NCBI GenBank assembly: GCA_032718475.1
Contig: JAUCBJ010000732.1
Location: 63,095 to 127,094, forward strand
Length of the DNA: 64,000 nt
DNA from: Nemertoderma westbladi
Taxonomy: Eukaryota; Animalia; Xenacoelomorpha
Direction: 5' to 3'
A model generated the notes under the pieces. The model did not search any database, was not told the origin of the DNA, and saw only the letters and a program-made list of their open reading frames with translations. How positions within the stretch are numbered: the stretch's first letter is position 1; every line of letters starts with the position of its first letter. Positions 17,199-62,842 of the stretch are shown here, in pieces. Position numbers and translations under genes: made by a program.

Positions 17199-17254
17199 AG
17201 TTTATGATAAAACAAACGAGTTTTCATTTAGTAGTTAATTATTGTAATATTGCA

Positions 17255-32234: not shown

Positions 32235-32453
32235 CCCGGCAGCGAGCACTAATTCATGGGCGTTACCACCTTTGAAGCTCGGGAGCAGTGACGGATGTAC
32301 GTTAATAAGACGGCCACGCCATTTCTCCACGAACCCGGCGGATAATATTCTCATATACCCGGCTAGACAGACCAACTCTATCCCATGAGACTCAAGGATG
32401 GCGCTCACCTTATCGTCAAATGATTCGCGTTTAAGGCCTTTATGACTTAAAAC
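32199..32453 (-). CDS. GART: Trifunctional purine biosynthetic protein, GAR transformylase domain exon
   Basis: TTCCTAG| acceptor; VLSHKGLKRESFDDKVSAILESHGIELVCLAGYMRILSAGFVEKWRGRLINVHPSLLPSFKGGNAHELVLAAGVTLTGCTAHFVE (PurN-type NxHPSLLP motif). The end shown uses the first GAG|GTAAGT donor. Confidence 0.93.
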
Positions 32454-34637: not shown

Positions 34638-34821
34638 CTAACTAAGGAAAATCCGTTGCTATGGACCCCGGATGACGCTATTCCTATAACTGCGTCACCG
34701 GGCGTGACGTCACTGGGTTCCTTCGGCAACACGAGGGACCGCTCAACCGCACCGACGGCGAATCCGGCTACATCGTAATCGCCGTCCCGGTACATTCCCG
34801 GCATCTCGGCCGTCTCGCCAC
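34638..34821 (-). CDS. GART: GART exon (AIR synthetase)
   Basis: GTTTAG| acceptor at 34822; (G)[27 protein letters not shown]...[18 protein letters not shown]; donor TTAG|GTCAGT. Confidence 0.95.
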
Positions 34822-37800
34822 CTAAACGGGTGAGTAAAGAGCGGGAAATTCAAACACCATCTAGGGGACGTATATAGAAACACATACACCTAAACGGGTG
34901 AGTAAAGGGCGGGAAATTCAAACACCATCTAGGGGACATATATAGAAACACATACACCTAAACGGGTGAGTAAAGAGCGGTAAATTCAAACACCATCTAG
35001 GGGACGCATATAGAAACACATACACCTAAACGGGTGAGTAAAGAGCGGGAAATTCAAACACCATCTAGGGGACGCATATAGAAACACATACACCTAAACG
35101 GGTGAGTAAAGCGCGGGAAATTCAAACACCATCTAGGGGACGTATATAGAAACACATACACCTAAACGGGTGAGTAAAGAGCGGGAAATTCAAACACCAT
35201 CTAGGGGACGCATATAGAAACACATACACCTAAACGGGTGAGTAAAGAGCGGGAAATTCAAACACCATCTAGGGGACGCATATAGAAACACATACACCGA
35301 AACGGGTGAGTAAAGAGCGGGAAATTCAAACACCATCTAGGGGACGCATATAGAAACACATACACCTAAACGGGTGAGTAAAGAGCGGGAAATTCAAACA
35401 CCATCTAGGGGACGTTAATAGAAACACATACACCTAAACGGGTGAGTAAAGAGCGGGAAATTCAAACACCATCTAGGGGACGTATATAGAAACACATACA
35501 CCGAAACGGGTGAGTAAAGAGCGGGAAATTCAAACACAATCTAGGGGACGCATATAGAAACACATACACCGAAACGGGTGAGTAAAGAGCGAGACATTCA
35601 AACACCATCTAGGGGACGTATATAGAAACACATACACCTAAACGGGTGAGTAAAGAGCGGGAAATTCAAACACCATCTAGGGGACATATATAGATACACA
35701 TACACCGAAACGGGTGAGTAAAGAGCGGGAAATTCAAACACCATCTAGTGGACTAGAAACACATACACCGAAACGGGTGAGTAAAGAGCGGGAAATTCAA
35801 ACACCATCTAGGGGACGTATATAGAAACACATACACCTAAACGGGTGAGTAAAGAGCGGGAAATTCAAACACCATCTAGGGGACATATATAGATACACAT
35901 ACACCTAAACGGGTGAGTAAAGAGCGGTAAATTCAAACACCATCTAGGGGACGCATATAGAAACACATACACCTAAACGGGTGAGTAAAGAGCGGGAAAT
36001 TCAAACACCATCTAGTGGACTAGAAACACATACACCGAAACGGGTGAGTAAAGAGCGGTAAATTCAAACACCATCTAGGGGACGTATATAGAAACACATA
36101 CACCTAAACGGGTGAGTAAAGAGCGGGAAATTCAAGCACAATCAAGGGGACGTATATAGAAACACATACACCTAAACGGGTGAGTAAAGAGCGGTAAATT
36201 CAAACACCATCTAGGGGACGTATATAGAAACACATACACCTAAACGGGTGAGTAAAGAGCGGGAAATTCAAGCACAATCAAGGGGACGTATATAGAAACA
36301 CATACACCTAAACGGGTGAGTAAAGAGCGGGAAATTCAAACACAATCTAGGGGACGCATATAGAAACACATACACCTAAACGGGTGAGTAAAGAGCGGGA
36401 AATTCAAACACCATCTAGGGGACGTTAATAGAAACACATACACCTAAACGGGTGAGTAAAGAGCGGGAAATTCAAACACCATCTAGGGGACGTATATAGA
36501 AACACATACACCTAAACGGGTGAGTAAAGAGCGGGAAATTCAAACACCATCTAGGGGACGTATATAGAAACACATACACCTAAACGGGTGAGTAAAGAGC
36601 GAGACATTCAAACACCATCTAGGACACGTATATAGAAACACATACACCTAAACGGGTGAGTAAAGAGCGGGAAATTCAAGCACAATCAAGGGGACGCATA
36701 TAGAAACACATACACCTAAACGGGTGAGTAAAGAGCGGTAAATTCAAACACCATCTAGGGGACGTATATAGAAACACATACACCTAAACGGGTGAGTAAA
36801 GAGCGGGAAATTCAAACACCATCTAGGGGACGTATATAGAAACACATACACCTAAACGGGTGAGTAAAGAGCGAGACATTCAAACACCATCTAGGACACG
36901 TATATAGAAACACATACACCTAAACGGGTGAGTAAAGGGCGGGAAATTCAAACACCATCTAGGGGACGTTAATAGAAACACATACACCTAAACGGGTGAG
37001 TAAAGAGCGAGACATTCAAACACCATCTAGGGGACGTTAATAGAAACACATACACCTAAACGGGTGAGTAAAGAGCGGGAAATTCAAACACCATCTAGGG
37101 GACGTATATAGAAACACATACACCTAAACGGGTGAGTAAAGAGCGGGAAATTCAAACACCATCTAGGGGACGCTAATAGAAACACATACACCTAAACGGG
37201 TGAGTAAAGAGCGGGAAATTCAAACACCATCTAGGGGACGTTAATAGAAACACATACACCTAAACGGGTGAGTAAAGAGCGAGACATTCAAACACCATCT
37301 AGGGGACGTATATAGAAACACATACACCGAAACGGGTGAGTAAAGAGCGGTAAATTCAAACACCATCTAGGGGACGTTAATAGAAACACATACACCTAAA
37401 CGGGTGAGTAAAGAGCGAGACATTCAAACACCATCTAGGGGACGTATATAGAAACACATACACCTAAACGGGTGAGTAAAGAGCGGGAAATTCAAACACC
37501 ATCTAGGGGACGCATATAGAAACACATACACCTAAACGGGTGAGTAAAGAGCGGGAAATTCAAACACCATCTAGGGGACGCATATAGAAACACATACACC
37601 GAAACGGGTGAGTAAAGAGCGGTAAATTCAAACACCATCTAGGGGACGTTAATAGAAACACATACACCTAAACGGGTGAGTAAAGAGCGGTAAATTCAAA
37701 CACCATCTAGGGGACGTTAATAGAAACACATACACCTAAACGGGTGAGTAAAGAGCGGGAAATTCAAACACCATCTAGGGGACGCATATAGAAACACATA

Positions 37801-40800
37801 CACCGAAACGGGTGAGTAAAGAGCGGTAAATTCAAACACCATCTAGGGGACGTTAATAGAAACACATACACCTAAACGGGTGAGTAAAGATCGGTAAATT
37901 CAAACACCATCTAGGGGACGTATATAGAAACACATACACCTAAACGGGTGAGTAAAGAGCGGCAAATTCAAACACCATCTAGGGGATGTTAATAGAAACA
38001 CATACACCTAAACGGGTGAGTAAAGGGCGGGAAATTCAAACACCATCTAGGGGACGTTAATAGAAACACATACACCTAAACGGGTGAGTAAAGAGCGAGA
38101 CATTCAAACACCATCTAGGGGACGTATATAGAAACACATACACCTAAACGGGTGAGTAAAGAGCGGGAAATTCAAACACCATCTAGGGGATGTTAATAGA
38201 AACACATACACCTAAACGGGTGAGTAAAGGGCGGGAAATTCAAACACCATCTAGGGGATGTTAATAGAAACACATACACCTAAACGGGTGAGTAAAGAGC
38301 GGGAAATTCAAACACCATCTAGGGGACGCATATAGAAACACATACACCGAAACGGGTGAGTAAAGAGCGGTAAATTCAAACACCATCTAGGGGACGTTAA
38401 TAGAAACACATACACCTAAACGGGTGAGTAAAGAGCGGGAAATTCAAACACCATCTAGGGGACGTTAATAGAAACACATACACCTAAACGGGTGAGTAAA
38501 GGGCGGGAAATTCAAACACCATCTAGGGGACGCATATAGAAACACATACACCGAAACGGGTGAGTAAAGAGCGGTAAATTCAAACACCATCTAGGGGACG
38601 TTAATAGAAACACATACACCTAAACGGGTGAGTAAAGAGCGGGAAATTCAAACACCATCTAGGGGACGTATATAGAAACACATACACCGAAACGGGTGAG
38701 TAAAGAGCGGTAAATTCAAACACCATCTAGGGGACGTATATAGAAACACATACACCTAAACGGGTGAGTAAAGAGCGGGAAATTCAAGCACAATCAAGGG
38801 GACGTATATAGAAACACATACACCTAAACGGGTGAGTAAAGAGCGGGAAATTCAAACACAATCTAGGGGACGCATATAGAAACACATACACCTAAACGGG
38901 TGAGTAAAGAGCGGGAAATTCAAACACCATCTAGGGGACGTTAATAGAAACACATACACCTAAACGGGTGAGTAAAGAGCGGGAAATTCAAACACCATCT
39001 AGGGGACGTATATAGAAACACATACACCTAAACGGGTGAGTAAAGAGCGGGAAATTCAAACACCATCTAGGGGACGTATATAGAAACACATACACCTAAA
39101 CGGGTGAGTAAAGAGCGAGACATTCAAACACCATCTAGGACACGTATATAGAAACACATACACCTAAACGGGTGAGTAAAGAGCGGGAAATTCAAGCACA
39201 ATCAAGGGGACGCATATAGAAACACATACACCTAAACGGGTGAGTAAAGAGCGGTAAATTCAAACACCATCTAGGGGACGTATATAGAAACACATACACC
39301 TAAACGGGTGAGTAAAGAGCGGGAAATTCAAACACCATCTAGGGGACGTATATAGAAACACATACACCTAAACGGGTGAGTAAAGAGCGAGACATTCAAA
39401 CACCATCTAGGACACGTATATAGAAACACATACACCTAAACGGGTGAGTAAAGGGCGGGAAATTCAAACACCATCTAGGGGACGTTAATAGAAACACATA
39501 CACCTAAACGGGTGAGTAAAGAGCGAGACATTCAAACACCATCTAGGGGACGTTAATAGAAACACATACACCTAAACGGGTGAGTAAAGAGCGGGAAATT
39601 CAAACACCATCTAGGGGACGTATATAGAAACACATACACCTAAACGGGTGAGTAAAGAGCGGGAAATTCAAACACCATCTAGGGGACGTTAATAGAAACA
39701 CATACACCTAAACGGGTGAGTAAAGAGCGGGAAATTCAAACACCATCTAGGGGACGTTAATAGAAACACATACACCTAAACGGGTGAGTAAAGAGCGAGA
39801 CATTCAAACACCATCTAGGGGACGTATATAGAAACACATACACCGAAACGGGTGAGTAAAGAGCGGTAAATTCAAACACCATCTAGGGGACGTTAATAGA
39901 AACACATACACCTAAACGGGTGAGTAAAGAGCGAGACATTCAAACACCATCTAGGGGACGTATATAGAAACACATACACCTAAACGGGTGAGTAAAGAGC
40001 GGGAAATTCAAACACCATCTAGGGGACGCATATAGAAACACATACACCTAAACGGGTGAGTAAAGAGCGGGAAATTCAAACACCATCTAGGGGACGCATA
40101 TAGAAACACATACACCGAAACGGGTGAGTAAAGAGCGGTAAATTCAAACACCATCTAGGGGACGTTAATAGAAACACATACACCTAAACGGGTGAGTAAA
40201 GAGCGGTAAATTCAAACACCATCTAGGGGACGTTAATAGAAACACATACACCTAAACGGGTGAGTAAAGAGCGGGAAATTCAAACACCATCTAGGGGACG
40301 CATATAGAAACACATACACCGAAACGGGTGAGTAAAGAGCGGTAAATTCAAACACCATCTAGGGGACGTTAATAGAAACACATACACCTAAACGGGTGAG
40401 TAAAGATCGGTAAATTCAAACACCATCTAGGGGACGTATATAGAAACACATACACCTAAACGGGTGAGTAAAGAGCGGCAAATTCAAACACCATCTAGGG
40501 GATGTTAATAGAAACACATACACCTAAACGGGTGAGTAAAGGGCGGGAAATTCAAACACCATCTAGGGGACGTATATAGAAACACATACACCTAAACGGG
40601 TGAGTAAAGAGCGGGAAATTCAAACACCATCTAGGGGACGTATATAGAAACACATACACCTAAACGGGTGAGTAAAGAGCGGGAAATTCAAACACCATCT
40701 AGGGGACGTATATAGAAACACATACACCTAAACGGGTGAGTAAAGGGCGGGAAATTCAAACACCATCTAGGGGATGTTAATAGAAACACATACACCTAAA

Positions 40801-43800
40801 CGGGTGAGTAAAGAGCGGGAAATTCAAACACCATCTAGGGGACGCATATAGAAACACATACACCGAAACGGGTGAGTAAAGAGCGGTAAATTCAAACACC
40901 ATCTAGGGGACGTTAATAGAAACACATACACCTAAACGGGTGAGTAAAGAGCGGGAAATTCAAACACCATCTAGGGGACGTTAATAGAAACACATACACC
41001 TAAACGGGTGAGTAAAGAGCGGGAAATTCAAACACCATCTAGGGGACGCATATAGAAACACATACACCGAAACGGGTGAGTAAAGAGCGGTAAATTCAAA
41101 CACCATCTAGGGGACGTTAATAGAAACACATACACCTAAACGGGTGAGTAAAGAGCGGGAAATTCAAACACCATCTAGGGGACGTATATAGAAACACATA
41201 CACCGAAACGGGTGAGTAAAGAGCGGTAAATTCAAACACCATCTAGGGGACGTTAATAGAAACACATACACCTAAACGGGTGAGTAAAGAGCGAGACATT
41301 CAAACACCATCTAGGGGACGTTAATAGAAACACATACACCTATACGGGTGAGTAAAGAGCGGGAAATTCAAACACCATCTAGGGGATGTTAATAGAAACA
41401 CATACACCTAAACGGGTGAGTAAAGAGCGAGACATTCAAACACCATCTAGGGGACGTATATAGAAACACATACACCTAAACGGGTGAGTAAAGAGCGGGA
41501 AATTCAAACACCATCTAGGGGACGCATATAGAAACACATACACCGAAACGGGTGAGTAAAGAGCGGGAAATTCAAACACCATCTAGGGGACGTATATAGA
41601 TACACATACACCTAAACGGGTTAGTAAAGAGCGGTAAATTCAAACACCATCTAGGGGACGTATATAGAAACACATACACCTAAACGGGTGAGTAAAGAGC
41701 GAGACATTCAAACACCATCTAGGGGACGTATATAGAAACACATACACCTAAACGGGTGAGTAAAGAGCGGGAAATTCAAACACCATCTAGGGGACGCATA
41801 TAGAAACACATACACCTAAACGGGTGAGTAAAGAGCGGGAAATTCAAACACCATCTAGGGGACGCATATAGAAACACATACACCGAAACGGGTGAGTAAA
41901 GAGCGGGAAATTCAAACACCATCTAGGGGACGTATATAGAAACACATACACCTAAACGGGTGAGTAAAGAGCGGGAAATTCAAACACCATCTAGGGGACG
42001 TATATAGAAACACATACACCTAAACGGGTGAGTAAAGAGCGGGAAATTCAAACACCATCTAGGGGACGTTAATAGATACACATACACCTAAACGGGTGAG
42101 TAAAGAGCGGGAAATTCAAACACCATCTAGGGGATGTTAATAGAAACACATACACCTAAACGGGTGAGTAAAGAGCGGGAAATTCAAACACCATCTAGGG
42201 GACGCATATAGAAACACATACACCGAAACGGGTGAGTAAAGAGCGGGAAATTCAAACACCATCTAGGGGACGTATATAGATACACATACACCTAAACGGG
42301 TGAGTAAAGAGCGGGAAATTCAAACACCATCTAGGGGATGTTAATAGAAACACATACACCTAAACGGGTGAGTAAAGAGCGGGAAATTCAAACACCATCT
42401 AGGGGACGCATATAGAAACACATACACCTAAACGGGTGAGTAAAGAGCGGGAAATTCAAACACCATCTAGGGGATGTTAATAGAAACACATACACCTAAA
42501 CGGGTGAGTAAAGAGCGGGAAATTCAAACACCATCTAGGGGACGCATATAGAAACACATACACCGAAACGGGTGAGTAAAGAGCGGGAAATTCAAACACC
42601 ATCTAGGGGACGTATATAGATACACATACACCTAAACGGGTGAGTAAAGAGCGGGAAATTCAAACACCATCTAGGGGATGTTAATAGAAACACATACACC
42701 TAAACGGGTGAGTAAAGAGCGGGAAATTCAAACACCATCTAGGGGACGCATATAGAAACACATACACCTAAACGGGTGAGTAAAGAGCGGGAAATTCAAA
42801 CACCATCTAGGGGACGCATATAGAAACACATACACCTAAACGGGTGAGTAAAGAGCGGTAAATTCAAACACAATCTAGGGGACATATATAGATACACATA
42901 CACCTAAACGGGTGAGTAAAGAGCGGGAAATTCAAACACCATCTAGGGGACGTATATAGATACACATACACCTAAACGGGTGAGTAAAGAGAGGGAAATT
43001 CAAACACCATCTAGGGGACGCATATAGAAACACATACACCGAAACGGGTGAGTAAAGAGCGGGAAATTCAAACACCATCTAGGGGACGTATATAGAAACA
43101 CATACACCTAAACGGGTGAGTAAAGAGCGGGAAATTCAAACACCATCTAGGGGACGTATATAGAAACACATACCCCTAAACGGGTGAGTAAAGAGCGGGA
43201 AATTCAAACACCATCTAGGGGACGTATATAGAAACACATACACCTAAACGGGTGAGTAAAGAGCGGGAAATTCAAACACCATCTAGGGGACGTATATAGA
43301 AACACATACACCTAAACGGGTGAGTAAAGAGCGGGAAATTCAAACACCATCTAGGGGATGTTAATAGAAACACATACACCTAAACGGGTGAGTAAAGAGC
43401 GGGAAATTCAAACACCATCTAGGGGATGTTAATAGAAACACATACACCTAAACGGGTGAGTAAAGAGCGGGAAATTCAAACACCATCTAGGGGACGCATA
43501 TAGAAACACATACACCGAAACGGGTGAGTAAAGAGCGGTAAATTCAAACACCATCTAGGGGACGTTAATAGAAACACATACACCTAAACGGGTGAGTAAA
43601 GAGCGGGAAATTCAAACACCATCTAGGGGACGTTAATAGAAACACATACACCTAAACGGGTGAGTAAAGAGCGGGAAATTCAAACACCATCTAGGGGACG
43701 CATATAGAAACACATACACCGAAACGGGTGAGTAAAGAGCGGTAAATTCAAACACCATCTAGGGGACGTTAATAGAAACACATACACCTAAACGGGTGAG

Positions 43801-46800
43801 TAAAGAGCGGGAAATTCAAACACCATCTAGGGGACGTATATAGAAACACATACACCTAAACGGGTGAGTAAAGAGCGAGACATTCAAACACCATCTAGGG
43901 GACGTTAATAGAAACACATACACCTATACGGGTGAGTAAAGAGCGGGAAATTCAAACACCATCTAGGGGATGTTAATAGAAACACATACACCTAAACGGG
44001 TGAGTAAAGAGCGAGACATTCAAACACCATCTAGGGGACGTATATAGAAACACATACACCTAAACGGGTGAGTAAAGAGCGGGAAATTCAAACACCATCT
44101 AGGGGACGCATATAGAAACACATACACCGAAACGGGTGAGTAAAGAGCGGGAAATTCAAACACCATCTAGGGGACGTATATAGATACACATACACCTAAA
44201 CGGGTGAGTAAAGAGCGGTAAATTCAAACACCATCTAGGGGACGTATATAGAAACACATACACCTAAACGGGTGAGTAAAGAGCGAGACATTCAAACACC
44301 ATCTAGGGGACGTATATAGAAACACATACACCTAAACGGGTGAGTAAAGAGCGGGAAATTCAAACACCATCTAGGGGACGCATATAGAAACACATACACC
44401 TAAACGGGTGAGTAAAGAGCGGGAAATTCAAACACCATCTAGGGGACGTTAATAGAAACACATACACCTAAACGGGTGAGTAAAGAGCGGGAAATTCAAA
44501 CACCATCTAGGGGACGTATATAGATACACATACACCTAAACGGGTGAGTAAAGAGCGGGAAATTCAAACACCATCTAGGGGACGTATATAGAAACACATA
44601 CACCGAAACGGGTGAGTAAAGAGCGGGAAATTCAAACACCATCTAGGGGACGTTAATAGAAACACATACACCTAAACGGGTGAGTAAAGAGCGGGAAATT
44701 CAAACACCATCTAGGGGACGTATATAGATACACATACACCTAAACGGGTGAGTAAAGAGCGGGAAATTCAAACACCATCTAGGGGATGTTAATAGAAACA
44801 CATACACCTAAACGGGTGAGTAAAGAGCGGGAAATTCAAACACCATCTAGGGGACGCATATAGAAACACATACACCGAAACGGGTGAGTAAAGAGCGGGA
44901 AATTCAAACACCATCTAGGGGACGTATATAGATACACATACACCTAAACGGGTGAGTAAAGAGCGGGAAATTCAAACACCATCTAGGGGATGTTAATAGA
45001 AACACATACACCTAAACGGGTGAGTAAAGAGCGGGAAATTCAAACACCATCTAGGGGACGCATATAGAAACACATACACCTAAACGGGTGAGTAAAGGGC
45101 GGTAAATTCAAACACAATCTAGGGGACATATATAGATACACATACACCTAAACGGGTGAGTAAAGAGCGGGAAATTCAAACACCATCTAGGGGACGTATA
45201 TAGATACACATACACCTAAACGGGTGAGTAAAGAGAGGGAAATTCAAACACCATCTAGGGGACGCATATAGAAACACATACACCGAAACGGGTGAGTAAA
45301 GAGCGGGAAATTCAAACACCATCTAGGGGACGTATATAGAAACACATACACCTAAACGGGTGAGTAAAGAGCGGGAAATTCAAACACCATCTAGGGGACG
45401 TATATAGAAACACATACCCCTAAACGGGTGAGTAAAGAGCGGGAAATTCAAACACCATCTAGGGGACGTATATAGAAACACATACACCTAAACGGGTGAG
45501 TAAAGAGCGGGAAATTCAAACACCATCTAGGGGACGCATATAGAAACACATACACCTAAACGGGTGAGTAAAGAGCGGGAAATTCAAACACCATCTAGGG
45601 GACGCATATAGAAACACATACACCGAAACGGGTGAGTAAAGAGCGGGAAATTCAAACACCATCTAGGGGACGTATATAGATATACATACACCTAAACGGG
45701 TGAGTAAAGAGCGGGAAATTCAAACACCATCTAGGGGACGCATATAGATATACATACACCGAAACGGGTGAGTAAAGAGCGGGAAATTCAAACACAATCT
45801 AGGGGACGCATATAGATATACATACACCTAAACGGGTGAGTAAAGATCGGGAAATTCAAACACAATCTAGGGGACGCATATAGATATACATACACCGAAA
45901 CGGGTGAGTAAAGAGCAGGAAATTCAAACACCATCTAGGGGACGTATATAGAAACACATACACCGAAACGGGTGAGTAAAGAGCGGGAAATTCAAACACC
46001 ATCTAGGGGACGTATATAGATACACATACACCTAAACGGGTGAGTAAAGAGCGGGAAATTCAAACACCATCTAGTGGACGTATATAGAAACACATACACC
46101 TAAACTGGTGAGTAAAGAGCGGTAAATTCAAACACCATCTAGGGGACGTTAATAGAAACACATACACCTAAACGGGTGAGTAAAGAGCGGGAAATTCAAA
46201 CACCATCTAGGGGACGTTAATAGAAACACATACACCTAAACGGGTGAGTAAAGAGCGGGAAATTCAAACACCATCTAGTGGACGTATATAGAAACACATA
46301 CACCTAAACGGGTGAGTAAAGAGCGGGAAATTCAAGCACAATCAAGGGGACGTATATAGAAACACATACACCTAAACGGGTGAGTAAAGAGCGGGAAATT
46401 CAAACACCATCTAGGGGACGCATATAGATATACATACACCGAAACGGGTGAGTAAAGAGCGGGAAATTCAAACACAATCTAGGGGACGCATATAGATATA
46501 CATACACCTAAACGGGTGAGTAAAGATCGGGAAATTCAAACACAATCTAGGGGACGCATATAGATATACATACACCGAAACGGGTGAGTAAAGAGCAGGA
46601 AATTCAAACACCATCTAGGGGACGTATATAGAAACACATACACCGAAACGGGTGAGTAAAGAGCGGGAAATTCAAACACCATCTAGGGGACGTATATAGA
46701 AACACATACACCTAAACGGGTGAGTAAAGAGCGGGAAATTCAAACACCATCTAGGGGACGTTAATAGAAACACATACACCTAAACGGGTGAGTAAAGAGC

Positions 46801-49800: not shown

Positions 49801-52800
49801 TCAAACACCATCTAGGGGACGTTAATAGAAACACATACACCTAAACGGGTGAGTAAAGAGCGGGAAATTCAAACACCATCTAGGGGACGTTAATAGAAAC
49901 ACATACACCTAAACGGGTGAGTAAAGAGCGGGAAATTCAAACACCATCTAGTGGACGTATATAGAAACACATACACCTAAACGGGTGAGTAAAGAGCGAG
50001 ACATTCAAACACCATCTAGGGGACGCCTATAGAAACACATACACCTAAACGGGTGAGTAAAGAGCGGGAAATTCAAACACCATCTAGGGGACGCATATAG
50101 AAACACATACACCTAAACGGGTGAGTAAAGAGCGGGAAATTCAAACACCATCTAGGGGATGTTAATAGAAACACATACACCTAAACGGGTGAGTAAAGAG
50201 CGAGACATTCAAACACCATCTAGGGGACGCCTATAGAAACACATACACCTAAACGGGTGAGTAAAGAGCGGGAAATTCAAACACCATCTAGGGGACGCAT
50301 ATAGAAACACATACACCGAAACGGGTGAGTAAAGAGCGGGAAATTCAAACACAATCTAGGGGACGTTAATAGAAACACATACACCTAAACGGGTGACTAA
50401 AGAGCGGGAAATTCAAACACCATCTAGTGGACGTATATAGAAACACATACACCTAAACGGGTGAGTAAAGAGTGGGAAATTCAAACACCATCTAGGGGAC
50501 GTTAATAGAAACACATACACCTAAACGGGTGAGTAAAGAGCGAGACATTCAAACACCATCTAGGGGACGCATATAGAAACACATACACCTAAACGGGTGA
50601 GTAAAGAGCGGGAAATTCAAACACCATCTAGGGGACGCATATAGAAACACATACACCTAAACGGGTGAGTAAAGAGCGGGAAATTCAAACACCATCTAGG
50701 GGACGTATATAGATACACATACACCGAAACGGGTGAGTAAAGAGCGGGAAATTCAAACACAATCTAGGGGACGTTAATAGAAACACATACACCTAAACGG
50801 GTGAGTAAAGAGCGGGAAATTCAAACACCATCTAGTGGACGTATATAGAAACACATACACCTAAACGGGTGAGTAAAGAGCGAGACATTCAAACACCATC
50901 TAGGGGACGCCTATAGAAACACATACACCTAAACGGGTGAGTAAAGAGCGGGAAATTCAAACACCATCTAGGGGACGCATATAGAAACACATACACCTAA
51001 ACGGGTGAGTAAAGAGCGGGAAATTCAAACACCATCTAGGGGATGTTAATAGAAACACATACACCTAAACGGGTGAGTAAAGAGCGAGACATTCAAACAC
51101 CATCTAGGGGACGTTAATAGAAACACATACACCTAAACGGGTGAGTAAAGAGCGGGAAATTCAAACACCATCTAGGGGACGTATATAGAAACACATACAC
51201 CGAAACGGGTGAGTAAAGAGCGGGAAATTCAAACACCATCTAGTGGACGTATATAGAAACACATACACCTAAACGGGTGAGTAAAGAGCGAGACATTCAA
51301 ACACCATCTAGGGGACGCCTATAGAAACACATACACCTAAACGGGTGAGTAAAGAGCGGGAAATTCAAACACCATCTAGGGGACGCATATAGAAACACAT
51401 ACACCGAAACGGGTGAGTAAAGAGCGGGAAATTCAAACACAATCTAGGGGACGTTAATAGAAACACATACACCTAAACGGGTGACTAAAGAGCGGGAAAT
51501 TCAAACACAATCTAGTGGACGTATATAGAAACACATACACCTAAACGGGTGAGTAAAGAGTGGGAAATTCAAACACCATCTAGGGGACGTTAATAGAAAC
51601 ACATACACCTAAACGGGTGAGTAAAGAGCGAGACATTCAAACACCATCTAGGGGACGCATATAGAAACACATACACCTAAACGGGTGAGTAAAGAGCGGG
51701 AAATTCAAACACCATCTAGGGGACGCATATAGAAACACATACACCTAAACGGGTGAGTAAAGAGCGGGAAATTCAAACACCATCTAGGGGACGTATATAG
51801 ATACACATACACCGAAACGGGTGAGTAAAGAGCGGGAAATTCAAACACAATCTAGGGGACGTTAATAGAAACACATACACCTAAACGGGTGAGTAAAGAG
51901 CGGGAAATTCAAACACCATCTAGTGGACGTATATAGAAACACATACACCTAAACGGGTGAGTAAAGAGCGAGACATTCAAACACCATCTAGGGGACGCCT
52001 ATAGAAACACATACACCTAAACGGGTGAGTAAAGAGCGGGAAATTCAAACACCATCTAGGGGACGCATATAGAAACACATACACCTAAACGGGTGAGTAA
52101 AGAGCGGGAAATTCAAACACCATCTAGGGGATGTTAATAGAAACACATACACCTAAACGGGTGAGTAAAGAGCGAGACATTCAAACACCATCTAGGGGAC
52201 GTTAATAGAAACACATACACCTAAACGGGTGAGTAAAGAGCGGGAAATTCAAACACCATCTAGGGGACGTATATAGATACACATACACCTAAACGGGTGA
52301 GTAAAGAGCGGGAAATTCAAACACCATCTAGTGGACGTATATAGAAACACATACACCTAAACTGGTGAGTAAAGAGCGGTAAATTCAAACACCATCTAGG
52401 GGACGTTAATAGAAACACATACACCTAAACGGGTGAGTAAAGAGCGGGAAATTCAAACACCATCTAGGGGACGTTAATAGAAACACATACACCTAAACGG
52501 GTGAGTAAAGAGCGGGAAATTCAAACACCATCTAGTGGACGTATATAGAAACACATACACCTAAACGGGTGAGTAAAGAGCGAGACATTCAAACACCATC
52601 TAGGGGACGCCTATAGAAACACATACACCTAAACGGGTGAGTAAAGAGCGGGAAATTCAAACACCATCTAGGGGACGCATATAGAAACACATACACCTAA
52701 ACGGGTGAGTAAAGAGCGGGAAATTCAAACACCATCTAGGGGATGTTAATAGAAACACATACACCTAAACGGGTGAGTAAAGAGCGAGACATTCAAACAC

Positions 52801-55800
52801 CATCTAGGGGACGTTAATAGAAACACATACACCTAAACGGGTGAGTAAAGAGCGGGAAATTCAAACACCATCTAGGGGACGTATATAGAAACACATACAC
52901 CGAAACGGGTGAGTAAAGAGCGGGAAATTCAAACACCATCTAGTGGACGTATATAGAAACACATACACCTAAACGGGTGAGTAAAGAGTGGGAAATTCAA
53001 ACACCATCTAGGGGACGTTAATAGAAACACATACACCTAAACGGGTGAGTAAAGAGCGAGACATTCAAACACCATCTAGGGGACGCATATAGAAACACAT
53101 ACACCTAAACGGGTGAGTAAAGAGCGGGAAATTCAAACACCATCTAGGGGACGCATATAGAAACACATACACCTAAACGGGTGAGTAAAGAGCGGGAAAT
53201 TCAAACACCATCTAGGGGACGTATATAGATACACATACACCGAAACGGGTGAGTAAAGAGCGGGAAATTCAAACACAATCTAGGGGACGTTAATAGAAAC
53301 ACATACACCTAAACGGGTGAGTAAAGAGCGGGAAATTCAAACACCATCTAGTGGACGTATATAGAAACACATACACCTAAACGGGTGAGTAAAGAGCGAG
53401 ACATTCAAACACCATCTAGGGGACGCCTATAGAAACACATACACCTAAACGGGTGAGTAAAGAGCGGGAAATTCAAACACCATCTAGGGGACGCATATAG
53501 AAACACATACACCTAAACGGGTGAGTAAAGAGCGGGAAATTCAAACACCATCTAGGGGATGTTAATAGAAACACATACACCTAAACGGGTGAGTAAAGAG
53601 CGAGACATTCAAACACCATCTAGGGGACGTTAATAGAAACACATACACCTAAACGGGTGAGTAAAGAGCGGGAAATTCAAACACCATCTAGGGGACGTAT
53701 ATAGATACACATACACCTAAACGGGTGAGTAAAGAGCGGGAAATTCAAACACCATCTAGTGGACGTATATAGAAACACATACACCTAAACTGGTGAGTAA
53801 AGAGCGGTAAATTCAAACACCATCTAGGGGACGTTAATAGAAACACATACACCTAAACGGGTGAGTAAAGAGCGGGAAATTCAAACACCATCTAGGGGAC
53901 GTTAATAGAAACACATACACCTAAACGGGTGAGTAAAGAGCGGGAAATTCAAACACCATCTAGTGGACGTATATAGAAACACATACACCTAAACGGGTGA
54001 GTAAAGAGCGGGAAATTCAAGCACAATCAAGGGGACGTATATAGAAACACATACACCTAAACGGGTGAGTAAAGAGCGGGAAATTCAAACACCATCTAGG
54101 GGACGCATATAGATATACATACACCGAAACGGGTGAGTAAAGAGCGGGAAATTCAAACACAATCTAGGGGACGCATATAGATATACATACACCTAAACGG
54201 GTGAGTAAAGATCGGGAAATTCAAACACAATCTAGGGGACGCATATAGATATACATACACCGAAACGGGTGAGTAAAGAGCAGGAAATTCAAACACCATC
54301 TAGGGGACGTATATAGAAACACATACACCGAAACGGGTGAGTAAAGAGCGGGAAATTCAAACACCATCTAGGGGACGTATATAGAAACACATACACCTAA
54401 ACGGGTGAGTAAAGAGCGGGAAATTCAAACACCATCTAGGGGACGTTAATAGAAACACATACACCTAAACGGGTGAGTAAAGAGCGGGAAATTCAAACAC
54501 CATCTAGGGGACGTATATAGATACACATACACCTAAACGGGTGAGTAAAGAGCGGGAAATTCAAACACCATCTAGTGGACGTATATAGAAACACATACAC
54601 CTAAACTGGTGAGTAAAGAGCGGTAAATTCAAACACCATCTAGGGGACGTTAATAGAAACACATACACCTAAACGGGTGAGTAAAGAGCGGGAAATTCAA
54701 ACACAATCTAGGGGACGCATATAGAAACACATACACCTAAACGGGTGAGTAAAGAGCGGGAAATTCAAACACCATCTAGGGGACGCATATAGAAACACAT
54801 ACACCTAAACGGGTGAGTAAAGAGCGGGAAATTCAAACACCATCTAGGGGACGTATATAGATACACATACACCGAAACGGGTGAGTAAAGAGCGGGAAAT
54901 TCAAACACAATCTAGGGGACGTTAATAGAAACACATACACCTAAACGGGTGAGTAAAGAGCGGGAAATTCAAACACCATCTAGTGGACGTATATAGAAAC
55001 ACATACACCTAAACGGGTGAGTAAAGAGCGAGACATTCAAACACCATCTAGGGGACGCCTATAGAAACACATACACCTAAACGGGTGAGTAAAGAGCGGG
55101 AAATTCAAACACCATCTAGGGGACGCATATAGAAACACATACACCGAAACGGGTGAGTAAAGAGCGGGAAATTCAAACACAATCTAGGGGACGTTAATAG
55201 AAACACATACACCTAAACGGGTGACTAAAGAGCGGGAAATTCAAACACCATCTAGTGGACGTATATAGAAACACATACACCTAAACGGGTGAGTAAAGAG
55301 TGGGAAATTCAAACACCATCTAGGGGACGTTAATAGAAACACATACACCTAAACGGGTGAGTAAAGAGCGAGACATTCAAACACCATCTAGGGGACGCAT
55401 ATAGAAACACATACACCTAAACGGGTGAGTAAAGAGCGGGAAATTCAAACACCATCTAGGGGACGCATATAGAAACACATACACCTAAACGGGTGAGTAA
55501 AGAGCGGGAAATTCAAACACCATCTAGGGGACGTATATAGATACACATACACCGAAACGGGTGAGTAAAGAGCGGGAAATTCAAACACAATCTAGGGGAC
55601 GTTAATAGAAACACATACACCTAAACGGGTGAGTAAAGAGCGGGAAATTCAAACACCATCTAGTGGACGTATATAGAAACACATACACCTAAACGGGTGA
55701 GTAAAGAGCGAGACATTCAAACACCATCTAGGGGACGCCTATAGAAACACATACACCTAAACGGGTGAGTAAAGAGCGGGAAATTCAAACACCATCTAGG

Positions 55801-58800
55801 GGACGCATATAGAAACACATACACCTAAACGGGTGAGTAAAGAGCGGGAAATTCAAACACCATCTAGGGGATGTTAATAGAAACACATACACCTAAACGG
55901 GTGAGTAAAGAGCGAGACATTCAAACACCATCTAGGGGACGTTAATAGAAACACATACACCTAAACGGGTGAGTAAAGAGCGGGACATTCAAACACCATC
56001 TAGGGGACGTTAATAGAAACACATACACCTAAACGGGTGAGTAAAGAGCGAGACATTCAAACACCATCTAGGGGACGCATATAGAAACACATACACCTAA
56101 ACGGGTGAGTAAAGAGCGGGAAATTCAAACACCATCTAGGGGACGCATATAGAAACACATACACCTAAACGGGTGAGTAAAGAGCGGGAAATTCAAACAC
56201 CATCTAGGGGACGTATATAGATACACATACACCGAAACGGGTGAGTAAAGAGCGGGAAATTCAAACACAATCTAGGGGACGTTAATAGAAACACATACAC
56301 CTAAACGGGTGAGTAAAGAGCGGGAAATTCAAACACCATCTAGTGGACGTATATAGAAACACATACACCTAAACGGGTGAGTAAAGAGCGAGACATTCAA
56401 ACACCATCTAGGGGACGCCTATAGAAACACATACACCTAAACGGGTGAGTAAAGAGCGGGAAATTCAAACACCATCTAGGGGACGCATATAGAAACACAT
56501 ACACCTAAACGGGTGAGTAAAGAGCGGGAAATTCAAACACCATCTAGGGGACGCATATAGAAACACATACACCTAAACGGGTGAGTAAAGAGCGGGAAAT
56601 TCAAACACCATCTAGTGGACGTATATAGAAACACATACACCTAAACGGGTGAGTAAAGAGCGAGACATTCAAACACCATCTAGGGGACGCCTATAGAAAC
56701 ACATACACCTAAACGGGTGAGTAAAGAGCGGGAAATTCAAACACCATCTAGGGGACGCATATAGAAACACATACACCGAAACGGGTGAGTAAAGAGCGGG
56801 AAATTCAAACACAATCTAGGGGACGTTAATAGAAACACATACACCTAAACGGGTGAGTAAAGAGCGGGAAATTCAAACACCATCTAGTGGACGTATATAG
56901 AAACACATACACCTAAACGGGTGAGTAAAGAGTGGGAAATTCAAACACCATCTAGGGGACGTTAATAGAAACACATACACCTAAACGGGTGAGTAAAGAG
57001 CGAGACATTCAAACACCATCTAGGGGACGCATATAGAAACACATACACCTAAACGGGTGAGTAAAGAGCGGGAAATTCAAACACCATCTAGGGGACGCAT
57101 ATAGAAACACATACACCTAAACGGGTGAGTAAAGAGCGGGAAATTCAAACACCATCTAGGGGACGTATATAGATACACATACACCTAAACGGGTGAGTAA
57201 AGAGCGGGAAATTCAAACACCATCTAGGGGACGTTAATAGAAACACATACACCTAAACGGGTGAGTAAAGAGCGGGAAATTCAAACACCATCTAGTGGAC
57301 GTATATAGAAACACATACACCTAAACGGGTGAGTAAAGAGCGGGAAATTCAAACACCATCTAGGGGACGTATATAGATACACATACACCGAAACGGGTGA
57401 GTAAAGAGCGGGAAATTCAAACACCATCTAGGGGACGTTAATAGAAACACATACACCTAAACGGGTGAGTAAAGAGCGGGAAATTCAAACACCATCTAGG
57501 GGACGTATATAGATACACATACACCGAAACGGGTGAGTAAAGAGCGGGAAATTCAAACACAATCTAGGGGACGTTAATAGAAACACATACACCTAAACGG
57601 GTGAGTAAAGAGCGGGAAATTCAAACACCATCTAGTGGACGTATATAGAAACACATACACCTAAACGGGTGAGTAAAGAGCGAGACATTCAAACACCATC
57701 TAGGGGACGCCTATAGAAACACATACACCTAAACGGGTGAGTAAAGAGCGGGAAATTCAAACACCATCTAGGGGACGCATATAGAAACACATACACCTAA
57801 ACGGGTGAGTAAAGAGCGGGAAATTCAAACACCATCTAGGGGATGTTAATAGAAACACATACACCTAAACGGGTGAGTAAAGAGCGAGACATTCAAACAC
57901 CATCTAGGGGACGTTAATAGAAACACATACACCTAAACGGGTGAGTAAAGAGCGGGAAATTCAAACACCATCTAGGGGACGTTAATAGAAACACATACAC
58001 CTAAACGGGTGAGTAAAGAGCGAGACATTCAAACACCATCTAGGGGACGCATATAGAAACACATACACCTAAACGGGTGAGTAAAGAGCGGGAAATTCAA
58101 ACACCATCTAGGGGACGCATATAGAAACACATACACCTAAACGGGTGAGTAAAGAGCGGGAAATTCAAACACCATCTAGGGGACGTATATAGATACACAT
58201 ACACCGAAACGGGTGAGTAAAGAGCGGGAAATTCAAACACAATCTAGGGGACGTTAATAGAAACACATACACCTAAACGGGTGAGTAAAGAGCGGGAAAT
58301 TCAAACACCATCTAGTGGACGTATATAGAAACACATACACCTAAACGGGTGAGTAAAGAGCGAGACATTCAAACACCATCTAGGGGACGCCTATAGAAAC
58401 ACATACACCTAAACGGGTGAGTAAAGAGCGGGAAATTCAAACACCATCTAGGGGACGCATATAGAAACACATACACCTAAACGGGTGAGTAAAGAGCGGG
58501 AAATTCAAACACCATCTAGGGGACGTATATAGAAACACATACACCTAAACGGGTGAGTAAAGAGCGGAAATTCAAACACCATCTAGGGGACGTTAATAGA
58601 AACACATACACCTAAACGGGTGAGTAAAGAGCGGGAAATTCAAACACCATCTAGGGGACGTATATAGAAACACATACACCGAAACGGGTGAGTAAAGAGC
58701 GGGAAATTCAAACACCATCTAGTGGACGTATATAGAAACACATACACCTAAACGGGTGAGTAAAGAGCGAGACATTCAAACACCATCTAGGGGACGCCTA

Positions 58801-61800
58801 TAGAAACACATACACCTAAACGGGTGAGTAAAGAGCGGGAAATTCAAACACCATCTAGGGGACGCATATAGAAACACATACACCGAAACGGGTGAGTAAA
58901 GAGCGGGAAATTCAAACACAATCTAGGGGACGTTAATAGAAACACATACACCTAAACGGGTGACTAAAGAGCGGGAAATTCAAACACAATCTAGTGGACG
59001 TATATAGAAACACATACACCTAAACGGGTGAGTAAAGAGTGGGAAATTCAAACACCATCTAGGGGACGTTAATAGAAACACATACACCTAAACGGGTGAG
59101 TAAAGAGCGAGACATTCAAACACCATCTAGGGGACGCATATAGAAACACATACACCTAAACGGGTGAGTAAAGAGCGGGAAATTCAAACACCATCTAGGG
59201 GACGCATATAGAAACACATACACCTAAACGGGTGAGTAAAGAGCGGGAAATTCAAACACCATCTAGGGGACGTATATAGATACACATACACCGAAACGGG
59301 TGAGTAAAGAGCGGGAAATTCAAACACAATCTAGGGGACGTTAATAGAAACACATACACCTAAACGGGTGAGTAAAGAGCGGGAAATTCAAACACCATCT
59401 AGTGGACGTATATAGAAACACATACACCTAAACGGGTGAGTAAAGAGCGAGACATTCAAACACCATCTAGGGGACGCCTATAGAAACACATACACCTAAA
59501 CGGGTGAGTAAAGAGCGGGAAATTCAAACACCATCTAGGGGACGCATATAGAAACACATACACCTAAACGGGTGAGTAAAGAGCGGGAAATTCAAACACC
59601 ATCTAGGGGATGTTAATAGAAACACATACACCTAAACGGGTGAGTAAAGAGCGAGACATTCAAACACCATCTAGGGGACGTTAATAGAAACACATACACC
59701 TAAACGGGTGAGTAAAGAGCGGGAAATTCAAACACCATCTAGGGGACGTATATAGAAAACATACACCGAAACGGGTGAGTAAAGAGCGGGAAATTCAAAC
59801 ACAATCTAGGGGACGTTAATAGAAACACATACACCTAAACGGGTGAGTAAAGAGCGGGAAATTCAAACACCATCTAGTGGACGTATATAGAAACACATAC
59901 ACCTAAACGGGTGAGTAAAGAGCGGGAAATTCAAACACCATCTAGGGGACGTTAATAGAAACACATACACCTAAACGGGTGAGTAAAGAGCGGGAAATTC
60001 AAACACCATCTAGGGGACGTTAATAGAAACACATACACCTAAACGGGTGAGTAAAGAGCGGGAAATTCAAACACCATCTAGGGGACGTTAATAGAAACAC
60101 ATACACCTAAACGGGTGAGTAAAGAGCGAGACATTCAAACACCATCTAGGGGACGTTAATAGAAACACATACACCTAAACGGGTGAGTAAAGAGCGGGAA
60201 ATTCAAACACCATCTAGGGGACGTATATAGAAACACATACACCGAAACGGGTGAGTAAAGAGCGGGAAATTCAAACACCATCTAGTGGACGTATATAGAA
60301 ACACATACACCTAAACGGGTGAGTAAAGAGCGAGACATTCAAACACCATCTAGGGGACGCCTATAGAAACACATACACCTAAACGGGTGAGTAAAGAGCG
60401 GGAAATTCAAACACCATCTAGGGGACGCATATAGAAACACATACACCGAAACGGGTGAGTAAAGAGCGGGAAATTCAAACACAATCTAGGGGACGTTAAT
60501 AGAAACACATACACCTAAACGGGTGACTAAAGAGCGGGAAATTCAAACACAATCTAGTGGACGTATATAGAAACACATACACCTAAACGGGTGAGTAAAG
60601 AGTGGGAAATTCAAACACCATCTAGGGGACGTTAATAGAAACACATACACCTAAACGGGTGAGTAAAGAGCGAGACATTCAAACACCATCTAGGGGACGC
60701 ATATAGAAACACATACACCTAAACGGGTGAGTAAAGAGCGGGAAATTCAAACACCATCTAGGGGACGCATATAGAAACACATACACCTAAACGGGTGAGT
60801 AAAGAGCGGGAAATTCAAACACCATCTAGGGGACGTATATAGATACACATACACCGAAACGGGTGAGTAAAGAGCGGGAAATTCAAACACAATCTAGGGG
60901 ACGTTAATAGAAACACATACACCTAAACGGGTGAGTAAAGAGCGGGAAATTCAAACACCATCTAGTGGACGTATATAGAAACACATACACCTAAACGGGT
61001 GAGTAAAGAGCGAGACATTCAAACACCATCTAGGGGACGCCTATAGAAACACATACACCTAAACGGGTGAGTAAAGAGCGGGAAATTCAAACACCATCTA
61101 GGGGACGCATATAGAAACACATACACCTAAACGGGTGAGTAAAGAGCGGGAAATTCAAACACCATCTAGGGGACGTTAATAGAAACACATACACCTAAAC
61201 GGGTGAGTAAAGAGCGGGAAATTCAAACACCATCTAGGGGACGTATATAGAAACACATACACCGAAACGGGTGAGTAAAGAGCGGGAAATTCAAACACAA
61301 TCTAGGGGACGTTAATAGAAACACATACACCTAAACGGGTGAGTAAAGAGCGGGAAATTCAAACACCATCTAGGGGACGCATATAGAAACACATACACCT
61401 AAACGGGTGAGTAAAGAGCGGGAAATTCAAACACCATCTAGGGGACGTTAATAGAAACACATACACCTAAACGGGTGAGTAAAGAGCGGGAAATTCAAAC
61501 ACCATCTAGGGGACGTATATAGAAACACATACACCGAAACGGGTGAGTAAAGAGCGGGAAATTCAAACACCATCTAGGGGACGTCTATAGAAACACATAC
61601 ACCTAAACGGGTGAGTAAAGAGCGGGAAATTCAAACACCATCTAGGGGACGTTAATAGAAACACATACACCTAAACGGGTGAGTAAAGAGCGGGAAATTC
61701 AAACACCATCTAGGGGACGCATATAGAAACACATACACCTAAACGGGTGAGTAAAGAGCGGGAAATTCAAACACCATCTAGGGGACGTATATAGAAACAC

Positions 61801-62577
61801 ATACACCTAAACGGGTGAGTAAAGAGCGGTAAATTCAAACACCATCTAGGGGACGTTAATAGAAACACATACACCTAAACGGGTGAGTAAAGAGCGAGAC
61901 ATTCAAACACCATCTAGGGGACGCCTATAGAAACACATACACCTAAACGGGTGAGTAAAGAGCGGGAAATTCAAACACCATCTAGGGGACGCATATAGAA
62001 ACACATACACCTAAACGGGTGAGTAAAGAGCGGGAAATTCAAACACCATCTAGGGGATGTTAATAGAAACACATACACCTAAACGGGTGAGTAAAGAGCG
62101 AGACATTCAAACACCATCTAGGGGACGCCTATAGAAACACATACACCTAAACGGGTGAGTAAAGAGCGGGAAATTCAAACACCATCTAGGGGACGCATAT
62201 AGAAACACATACACCGAAACGGGTGAGTAAAGAGCGGGAAATTCAAACACAATCTAGGGGACGTTAATAGAAACACATACACCTAAACGGGTGACTAAAG
62301 AGCGGGAAATTCAAACACCATCTAGTGGACGTATATAGAAACACATACACCTAAACGGGTGAGTAAAGAGTGGGAAATTCAAACACCATCTAGGGGACGT
62401 TAATAGAAACACATACACCTAAACGGGTGAGTAAAGAGCGAGACATTCAAACACCATCTAGGGGACGCATATAGAAACACATACACCTAAACGGGTGAGT
62501 AAAGAGCGGGAAATTCAAACACCATCTAGGGGACGCATATAGAAACACATACACCGAAACGGGTGAGTAAAGAGCGG
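34819..62577 (-). repeat. 27.8-kb intronic satellite, 68-bp unit (about 408 copies) containing the intron's putative branch point and 3' splice site
   Basis: Plus-strand unit CACCTAAACGGGTGAGTAAAGAGCGGGAAATTCAAACACCATCTAGGGGACGTATATAGAAACACATA (copies at 34819, 34887, ...). The last sense copy is the functional acceptor of exon 34638-34821. Confidence 0.98.
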
Positions 62578-62643
62578 TTAAATCGTGCTACGGCATAGAG
62601 GAACAGTGAGTGACAATAATTAGCATCAACTATCACAACCCAC

Positions 62644-62842
62644 CAATCAAGGCACATCCGCAATCTTTGCAAGCCTTGGCGACGCTTTTAACTACAGACG
62701 TTGCCACGGCTACATCCAATCGGGAGCAGGCGTAGTAATCAAGGAAGAATAAGGGTTCGGCCCCCACAGTGAGGATGTCGTTGACGCACATAGCAACCAA
62801 ATCCTGCCCAATGGTGTCATGGAAACCGGCCTCCAACGCAAT
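62644..62842 (-). CDS. GART: GART exon (AIR synthetase N-terminal domain)
   Basis: TGTAG| acceptor; [39 protein letters not shown]...CGCALI(G). Donor ATTG|GTGGGT (phase 1) joins GT GGC GAG to give the conserved [11 protein letters not shown]. Confidence 0.95.

What the first reader, a model, noticed from the sequence alone, without database searches (positions are those of the whole stretch)
34819..62643. A 27.8-kb intron built from about 408 copies of its own branch point and 3' splice site, each forming an AG|GT recursive-splice-like site
Seen: in transcript sense each unit reads ...TTTGAATTTCCCGCTCTTTACTCACCCGTTTAG|GTGTATGTG. That is a pyrimidine tract, a TACTCAC branch-like motif and the same TTTAG|GTG as the true acceptor at 34822. 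Only about 66 nt of the intron, next to the donor, is unique, so a roughly 100-nt intron has grown over 200-fold. Splicing the upstream exon to any internal AG regenerates ATTG|GTGTAT, similar to the native donor ATTG|GTGGGT, and a GTATGT donor word lies 2 nt further. A recurrent variant (GTTTCGGTG), including the unit nearest the donor, destroys the AG. Known: recursive splicing uses zero-length AG|GT sites. Inference: this housekeeping gene either ratchets through the array or relies on strict exon definition to ignore hundreds of decoys.
Basis: partly seen in the sequence, partly recalled or inferred. Interest (0 to 1): 0.85.

Follow-up and report, generated by a model that had tools for sequence, protein, structure and literature searches.

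The report
Giant self-masking splice-acceptor repeat in GART
One intron of an animal's purine-synthesis gene (GART) holds 408 tandem copies of its own splice-acceptor signal, yet the assembled RNA joins to the last one, likely because each spare copy is predicted to fold into a hairpin that hides its signal; this is an oversized case of a repeat type known from lancelets and likely not a stepwise splicing ladder.

Summary
The array is real: 408 units of 68 nt fill a 27,822-nt GT-AG intron of GART. Of 408 internal junctions 334 read AG|GT and 72 have lost the AG. Read depths fit the assembly and suggest about 17 to several hundred copies between samples. One RNA-like run joins the upstream exon straight to the last AG; no joint to an internal unit appears, but contigs drop rare forms. 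Recursion is unlikely: the regenerated donor lacks the +5 G of all six GART donors, a rival donor word at +2 would shift the frame, and the CG in the donor-nearest unit is polymorphic. New here: every internal AG|GT is predicted to sit in an RNA hairpin with the next unit (z about -4.5 to -4.9, transcript strand only); 0 of 336 internal AGs are as open as the true one. I found no sign of selection on the hairpin. The gene also has a 33-copy donor array. The closest known class is the lancelet 'mirage' (3-7 copies in the passages read). The scan noted many similar giant arrays in this genome and others (unchecked). Verdict: new variant of a known kind.

The parts
62644..62842 (-). GART exon B (AIRS N-terminal part), upstream of the giant intron; donor TTG|GTGGGT
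   Evidence: tblastn; Pfam PF00586; covered by X4 contig
34822..62643 (-). Giant intron, 27,822 nt, GT...AG, phase 1
   Evidence: X4 contig joins 62644 to 34821
62578..62643 (-). Unique 66-nt 5' part of the intron; no detectable homology to the repeat filler
   Evidence: shuffle p 0.35 global, 0.61 local
62555..62577 (-). First, partial unit (23 nt); CG instead of AG in this assembly, AG inferred in run X3
   Evidence: contig ends
34819..62577 (-). 68-nt minisatellite, 408 units plus a partial one; unit = GTG + 42-nt filler + 23-nt acceptor end; 336 internal AG, 72 CG
34855..34900 (-). Example of the predicted junction hairpin (last internal acceptor): the acceptor end and the GT/GTATGT words pair with the next unit's filler; it repeats at every internal junction
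   Evidence: -16.9 kcal/mol, z -4.88, 0 of 200 shuffles
34638..34821 (-). GART exon C (184 nt, about 60% GC); its acceptor TTTAG|GTGGCG is the end of the last unit and the one used
30839..32234 (-). Second junction array in the same gene: 42-nt unit x 33 = last 36 nt of exon F plus GTAAGT; the RNA-like contig leaves at the first copy
32199..32453 (-). GART exon F (formyltransferase domain)
   Evidence: Pfam PF00551

Best explanation
The array is a length-variable minisatellite that copies the intron's own acceptor, and the cell likely removes the whole intron in one step to the last AG, which is predicted to be the only exposed one and is the only one followed by a real exon. Shown: the anatomy, the intact frame, and an exon-B-to-exon-C junction in one RNA-like run. 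Predicted: as each unit is transcribed, its filler pairs back onto the preceding acceptor (about 16 bp with G-U pairs), burying the AG and the GT/GTATGT words behind it; the last acceptor has no filler after it and stays partly open. Inferred: exon C (65% GC and 16% U in its first 68 nt, against 44% and 41% for a unit, with a good donor 184 nt on) is recognised across the exon; any splice to an internal AG meets a stop within 10 codons and would be removed by nonsense-mediated decay. Inferred origin: a local duplication over the junction, then ordinary repeat turnover, tolerated because the copies are silent. The array is likely a passenger.
For: X4 covers exons only and joins three short GT-AG introns; its 759-nt contig (depth 430) runs from exon B directly into exon C with no differences. 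Hairpin: z -4.88 and -4.51 on the transcript strand, -0.54 on the other strand, +0.02 at the true acceptor; 0 of 400 filler shuffles match it for either of the two commonest units; best of 11 scorable array-strand scans run the same way (-4.38, next -3.28; a twelfth gave no value) and absent with DNA parameters. Folding the whole region: mean AG unpaired probability 0.055-0.059 for 336 internal AGs, 0.34-0.36 for the true one, 0 of 336 as open. 407 of 408 units give a stop within the first unit in exon-B frame. Copy number differs between runs (about 17 in X3, about 200 in X2, hundreds in X1; rough). Precedent: lancelet mirages do not disturb the mRNA (PMC3087553, PMC3902484, passages); structure can mask potential 3' splice sites (PMC3239191, abstract).
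Against: The hairpin is a prediction, found after looking. The true AG's openness depends on the window: 0.00-0.65 over the windows tried, and near 0 when the upstream partner is cut off or only 10 exon bases are present. One other acceptor in the window (ABCC, inferred) is also predicted closed, at 0.01. No selection signal: no two-sided compensatory change in 16 pairs over 402 junctions, observed variants are no milder than all single changes (p 0.60), and AG loss sits in stronger, not weaker, hairpin contexts (copies are not independent). The RNA evidence is one run, on record as 'DNA?', held as contigs that drop rare forms, and its own array length is unknown. The scan's unchecked notes report other giant acceptor arrays in this genome that are skipped although their units include exon sequence, so exon definition may suffice without a hairpin.
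Confidence: 0.65

Rival explanations
1. Recursive removal: exon B is spliced to an internal AG, the new junction acts as a donor, and the intron is removed in several or many steps.
For: 334 of 408 internal junctions read AG|GT, the minimal recursive motif; the intron is long; the regenerated site equals the native donor in raw U1-pairing count; intermediates would be invisible in mature RNA and in contigs; tandem AGGT sites are used in human UBC (PMC10809524, abstract and discussion).
Against: No +5 G, unlike 6 of 6 GART donors; the competing +2 donor word scores higher and would leave 2 or 70 extra bases, whereas known ratchet points have the stronger donor and are ultraconserved (PMC8605326, introduction); 72 of 408 sites have lost the AG; the sites are predicted to be buried; no such joint among the 2 X4 contigs laid at the donor end (weak).
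Confidence: 0.15
2. Leaky decoys with decay: internal AGs are used often, the products are destroyed by nonsense-mediated decay, and array length therefore tunes GART output.
For: Nearly every internal splice creates an early stop (407 of 408); the unit is present in the RNA-like run at depth 203 while single-copy intron parts are not assembled; length varies between samples.
Against: Contig depth across the B-C junction (430) is close to that of the downstream exons (548); depth 203 spread over many copies fits ordinary pre-mRNA or DNA carry-over (about 1.3 per copy if X4's array resembled this one); the decoys are predicted closed.
Confidence: 0.12
3. The nascent array RNA acts as a sponge or condensate seed for splicing factors, as described for the chicken LL2R repeat.
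For: Hundreds of splice-signal words in one transcribed intron; precedent in bioRxiv 10.64898/2026.03.19.712899 (abstract only).
Against: LL2R is a separate non-coding unit rich in donors; here the signals are predicted to be paired; copy number ranges widely; nothing was tested.
Confidence: 0.05
4. The array is inflated by the assembly.
For: No laid contig spans it; X1 may be the source; the donor-side flank has an unexplained low depth in X1 (3.4 against 19-22.5); X3 suggests only about 17 copies.
Against: For three X1 variant contigs, depth divided by multiplicity in the assembly is 17.1, 17.8 and 18.7 against a single-copy depth of 19-22.5 (one assignment fixed by geometry, two chosen as best fit among six listed candidates each; two other contigs tried gave no clear fit); the array has ordered higher-order variant blocks; X2, from another study, also shows about 200 times single-copy depth.
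Confidence: 0.03

Closest known systems
Amphioxus 'mirage' minisatellites (Adh3, troponin C, globins BflGb6/BflGb9, PGBD5; PMC3087553 and PMC3902484, passages read; the original Adh3 paper not read)
   Same: Tandem copies of an intron-exon border, many but not all keeping AG/GT, length-variable, with no visible harm to the mRNA; both acceptor-side and donor-side forms, as in this gene.
   Different: 408 copies over 27.8 kb against 3-7 in the passages read; the unit holds only 3 exon bases plus a 42-nt filler unrelated to the exon; a predicted masking hairpin, not mentioned in the passages read; the host is an animal not placed further here.
Human donor-spanning VNTRs: F7 intron 7 (37 bp, 5-9 copies), CBS intron 13, IFI6/6-16, LMNB2, PDGF (PMC1557585, passages read)
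   Same: Identical splice sites repeated into the intron and normally silent. The 42-nt donor array at 30839-32234 is a direct counterpart (first site used).
   Different: These are donor-side, explained by first-come 5'-to-3' scanning. For an acceptor array first-come would choose the wrong (first) AG, so another rule is needed.
Recursive splice sites / ratchet points (Drosophila Ubx, kuz, Bx; PMC8605326 introduction; PMC10156609 passages)
   Same: YAG|GT inside a long intron.
   Different: Weak donor without +5 G, not conserved, hundreds of copies 68 nt apart instead of isolated sites, no intermediate seen.
Tandem dual-specific AGGT sites (human UBC, VCX3A; PMC10809524, abstract and discussion)
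   Same: Repeat units that each carry AGGT.
   Different: There both intron ends lie in repeats and isoforms vary in unit number; here the donor is unique, units are out of frame and carry a stop, and one mRNA form was seen.

Membership tests
Mirage (junction-spanning minisatellite) | Tandem unit spans an intron-exon boundary of the host gene | tested here: met
   Array ends 3 nt inside exon C and each unit repeats the last 23 intron bases plus GTG; the exon share is only 3 nt
Mirage (junction-spanning minisatellite) | Many but not all units keep the splice signal | tested here: met
   336 AG and 72 CG among 408 internal positions
Mirage (junction-spanning minisatellite) | Length instability between haplotypes or individuals | tested here: met
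   Unit depth over flank depth about 17 (X3), about 200 (X2), hundreds (X1); rough, from contig depths
Mirage (junction-spanning minisatellite) | Normal mRNA is still made from the authentic site | tested here: met
   X4 contig joins exon B to exon C; one run, contigs only
Recursive splice site (ratchet point) | Juxtaposed acceptor and donor, YAG|GT, in a long intron | tested here: met
   334 of 408 junctions are AG|GT
Recursive splice site (ratchet point) | Regenerated donor is strong and outcompetes downstream donors | tested here: not met
   TTG|GTGTAT: 5+2 U1 pairs, no +5 G; the +2 site scores 6+2; crude count, no species model
Recursive splice site (ratchet point) | Strong conservation of the site | tested here: not met
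   AG lost at 72 of 408 positions; A67 is among the most variable columns; copy number varies
Recursive splice site (ratchet point) | Intermediates: exon-to-site junction reads, internal lariats, saw-tooth coverage | not testable with these tools
   Only contigs were served; no joint among the X4 contigs laid, which cannot show absence
Tandem dual-specific splice-site array (UBC type) | Both intron ends lie in repeat units and isoforms vary in unit number | tested here: not met
   Donor lies in unique sequence; one mRNA contig form

The most novel reading that the evidence does not exclude
A self-silencing satellite: each unit folds in the nascent RNA so that it hides the acceptor and donor words it has just copied, leaving only the terminal acceptor visible. 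This RNA-level property is what allowed a splice-site repeat to grow to hundreds of copies inside a core metabolic gene, and such masking may be a general filter on the many giant junction satellites that the scan reports in this genome.
Probability: 0.3. Interest if true: 0.68.

Novelty: new variant of a known kind. Interest (0 to 1): 0.45.

Why it matters
How a spliceosome picks one 3' splice site among identical candidates is an old question. The donor-side answer (first-come scanning, F7) predicts the wrong site for acceptors. Here 336 near-identical acceptors precede the true one, alleles appear to range from about 17 to hundreds of copies, and the sequence gives a concrete, cheap test: break and restore one stem in a minigene. 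If masking holds, RNA folding would set which tandem repeats can expand at exon borders. If not, the locus is still a strong natural control for exon definition. The class itself is known, and the scan has met it many times.

Tried and rejected
No whole genome is held, so genome-wide enrichment and other arrays could not be checked. No RNA holder listed by record; X4 was recognised as RNA-like only from its exon-only cover. Whole-intron tandem duplication as origin: the unique 66 nt do not align to the 45-nt unit head better than shuffles (p 0.35 and 0.61); rejected as unsupported. Selection against the donor-nearest AG: not supported, since X3 appears to carry AG there and X2 both forms (inferred from contig ends). 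Selection to keep the hairpin: no support. A DNA hairpin as driver of expansion: not supported (best -2.8 kcal/mol, z about -2 on either strand). Dispersed satellite family: the only loose ends in X1-X3 at the unit are exon C, so it looks locus-specific. Taxon: three protein searches gave only distant animal hits; not placed. The last GART exon was not found in the window by tblastn or HMM. No paper describing hundreds of acceptor copies or a self-masking unit turned up in searches; the library lacks most subscription papers, and I opened no supplements (the mirage alignments in the supplement of PMC3087553 could bear on hairpins).

Full report
Observation. Tandem Repeats Finder gives one array at 34819-62577, period 68, 408.4 copies. 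It lies on the minus strand in an intron of GART, the trifunctional purine-synthesis gene: six exons match animal GART by tblastn, and three carry the expected Pfam domains AIRS, AIRS_C and Formyl_trans_N. The intron runs from 62643 to 34822 (27,822 nt, GT...AG) and its removal gives an intact frame. It consists of 66 unique bases, a 23-nt partial unit and 408 units. In transcript sense a unit is GTG, a 42-nt filler and the last 23 intron bases. Of the 408 internal acceptor positions 336 end in AG and 72 in CG; 334 read AG|GT. Other candidates lie at -14 and about -29; I could not decide among them. The host is an animal with divergent proteins that I could not place further.

Is it real? Eight runs were listed, four hold the locus, and I laid those four on both ends of the array. 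For three X1 contigs that match variant units, depth divided by the variant's multiplicity in the assembly is 17.1, 17.8 and 18.7, against 19-22.5 for single-copy flanks. One assignment is fixed by geometry and two are best fits among candidates; two further contigs tried gave no clear fit. X1 may be the source sample, and its donor-side flank has an unexplained depth of 3.4. X2, from another study, has about 200 times single-copy depth over the unit (summed contigs, rough). X3 has one 98-nt contig, a closed 68-step cycle, at depth 348 against about 20, so about 17 uniform copies. The tool warns that depth is not copy number, so these are orders of magnitude. The only loose ends are exon C, so the repeat looks locus-specific. 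The array has ordered blocks of variants. I conclude that it is a real, length-variable minisatellite.

How is it spliced? X4 is on record as 'DNA?' but covers exons only and joins three short GT-AG introns, so it behaves as RNA. Its 759-nt contig (depth 430) covers exon B and continues directly into exon C, that is, to the last AG. Only two X4 contigs lie on the donor end, this one and the unit cycle (depth 203); no joint from exon B to a unit is listed. Contigs drop rare forms, so this shows the main product and not the path. The unit RNA at depth 203 would be about 1.3 per copy if X4's array were like this one (mean word multiplicity 161), or about 12 per copy if it had 17 copies; I cannot tell which.

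Recursion. Known ratchet points have ultraconserved acceptor-donor pairs whose donor is generally stronger than the downstream one (PMC8605326, introduction). Here the regenerated donor TTG|GTGTAT ties the native TTG|GTGGGT in a crude count against the recalled U1-complementary consensus (5 matches plus 2 G-U). But it lacks the +5 G present in 6 of 6 GART donors; one inferred ABCC donor in the window also lacks it but is otherwise near-perfect. The word two bases on, GGT|GTATGT, scores 6+2; its use would leave 2 or 70 extra bases and break the frame. A splice to an internal AG without re-splicing meets a stop within the first unit in 407 of 408 units. The AG is lost at 72 of 408 positions. Recursion is therefore unlikely as a rule but not excluded as an occasional path.

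A predicted masking hairpin. Folding shows each internal acceptor end, with the GT and GTATGT words after it, paired to the filler of the next unit. Two junction windows give -16.9 and -16.1 kcal/mol, z -4.88 and -4.51, 0 of 200 shuffles each; the opposite strand gives z -0.54 and the true acceptor window z 0.02. Keeping the acceptor and shuffling only the filler, 0 of 400 shuffles reach the observed energy or closure for either of the two commonest units. The same phase scan over six arrays of the window on both strands ranks this strand first (-4.38; next -3.28; one of 12 gave no value), and DNA parameters do not give the fold. Folding the 28.6-kb region with two window settings, the 336 internal AGs have a mean unpaired probability of 0.055-0.059 (maximum 0.27) and the true AG 0.34-0.36; none of 336 is as open. 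The logic is simple: a filler pairs with the acceptor transcribed just before it, so the last acceptor has no partner after it. Against this: the true AG can pair with the filler of its own unit, and its openness ranged from 0.00 to 0.65 over the local windows tried; one other acceptor of the window is also predicted closed; no pair shows a two-sided compensatory change over 402 junctions; the 18 observed variants are no milder than all single changes (p 0.60); and AG loss is found beside stronger rather than weaker partners (copies not independent). So the hairpin is well predicted, but selection on it is not shown. It may be a by-product of origin that happened to make the repeat tolerable. 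Masking of potential 3' splice sites by structure has precedent in yeast (PMC3239191, abstract). Independently, only the last AG is followed by exon-like sequence (65% GC, 16% U, against 44% and 41%) and a good donor 184 nt on, which fits exon definition (established knowledge).

Origin. A duplication of the whole old intron is not supported. The filler has no clear source in the unique part or in exon C beyond GTG; its partial self-complementarity to the junction suggests a fold-back event or a decayed inverted copy (inference, untested). With other GART introns of 337-752 nt, a 40-80-nt duplication in a short intron will often touch a splice site, and only arrays that leave splicing intact survive, so no special targeting is needed (inference).

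Context. The same gene carries a second junction array: 33 copies of 42 nt at 30839-32234, each the last 36 nt of exon F plus GTAAGT. The X4 contig leaves at the first copy, as in human F7. The scan's unchecked notes list many giant junction arrays in this genome (63 of 79 notes fit my words; acceptor cases) and some in other genomes. I could not test them. They agree with a passenger reading and suggest that last-acceptor choice may not need a hairpin.

Comparison. It meets the four features of a 'mirage' as described for lancelet Adh3, globins, troponin C and PGBD5 (PMC3087553 and PMC3902484, passages), and mirrors the donor VNTRs of human F7, CBS, IFI6, LMNB2 and PDGF (PMC1557585, passages). 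It fails two tested features of ratchet points and differs from UBC-type dual-site arrays (PMC10809524, abstract and discussion). It differs from published mirages in size (408 against 3-7 copies in the passages read), in holding only 3 exon bases, and in the predicted hairpin. Searches showed no paper on such a size or on self-masking; the library is incomplete and I opened no supplements.

Verdict. Observation confirmed with small corrections; recursion unlikely (0.15); tolerated mirage spliced to the last AG, helped by predicted self-masking (0.65). New variant of a known kind, interest 0.45.

Noticed in passing
window 30839-32234 (-): Donor-side junction array in the same GART gene: 33 x 42 nt, 33 GTAAGT words, open in the exon's frame (14-residue repeat); the RNA-like contig uses the first donor.
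   Followed up: partly
window 1-32198: The last GART exon is not in the window, though the X4 contig has 566 more bases beyond exon F. Either the last intron exceeds 32 kb and holds an opposite-strand TOG gene and a same-strand ABCC gene, or the scaffold is misjoined or rearranged here.
   Followed up: partly
window 22901-27189 (+): A 4.3-kb open exon of an XMAP215/mini-spindles-like gene (weak Pfam hit) with a coding 42-nt repeat, 28.5 copies, at 23969-25166.
   Followed up: partly
window 17259-22848: 29-nt T-rich array, 193 copies, ending about 50 nt before the apparent acceptor of the TOG-gene exon without including it.
   Followed up: no
window 1-3540 (-): Intron-poor ABCC4-like transporter gene with a 2.8-kb exon, only about 30% identical to its best hits.
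   Followed up: partly
window 7670-9870 (+) and 16089-17201 (-): Broken retrotransposon-like remnants (DUF1759; weak aspartyl protease hit); the Bel/Pao label is recalled, not tested.
   Followed up: partly
window about 32993-33070: A short stretch of the exon E-F intron matches thousands of contigs in all four runs, so it is a very high-copy dispersed element.
   Followed up: no
window 62549-62900: In run X1 the donor-side flank has depth 3.4 against 19-22.5 on the other side of the array; unexplained.
   Followed up: no
runs X2 and X3 on window 33026-34869: Listed as one sample, yet X3 differs from the window at 35 of 1838 letters and X2 at 3 of 908, and their arrays differ about tenfold in depth; they look like different genotypes.
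   Followed up: no
window 27595-28416 and 28797-30171: Two more minisatellites (16 nt x 51; 63 nt x 22) with no splice site that I could assign.
   Followed up: no
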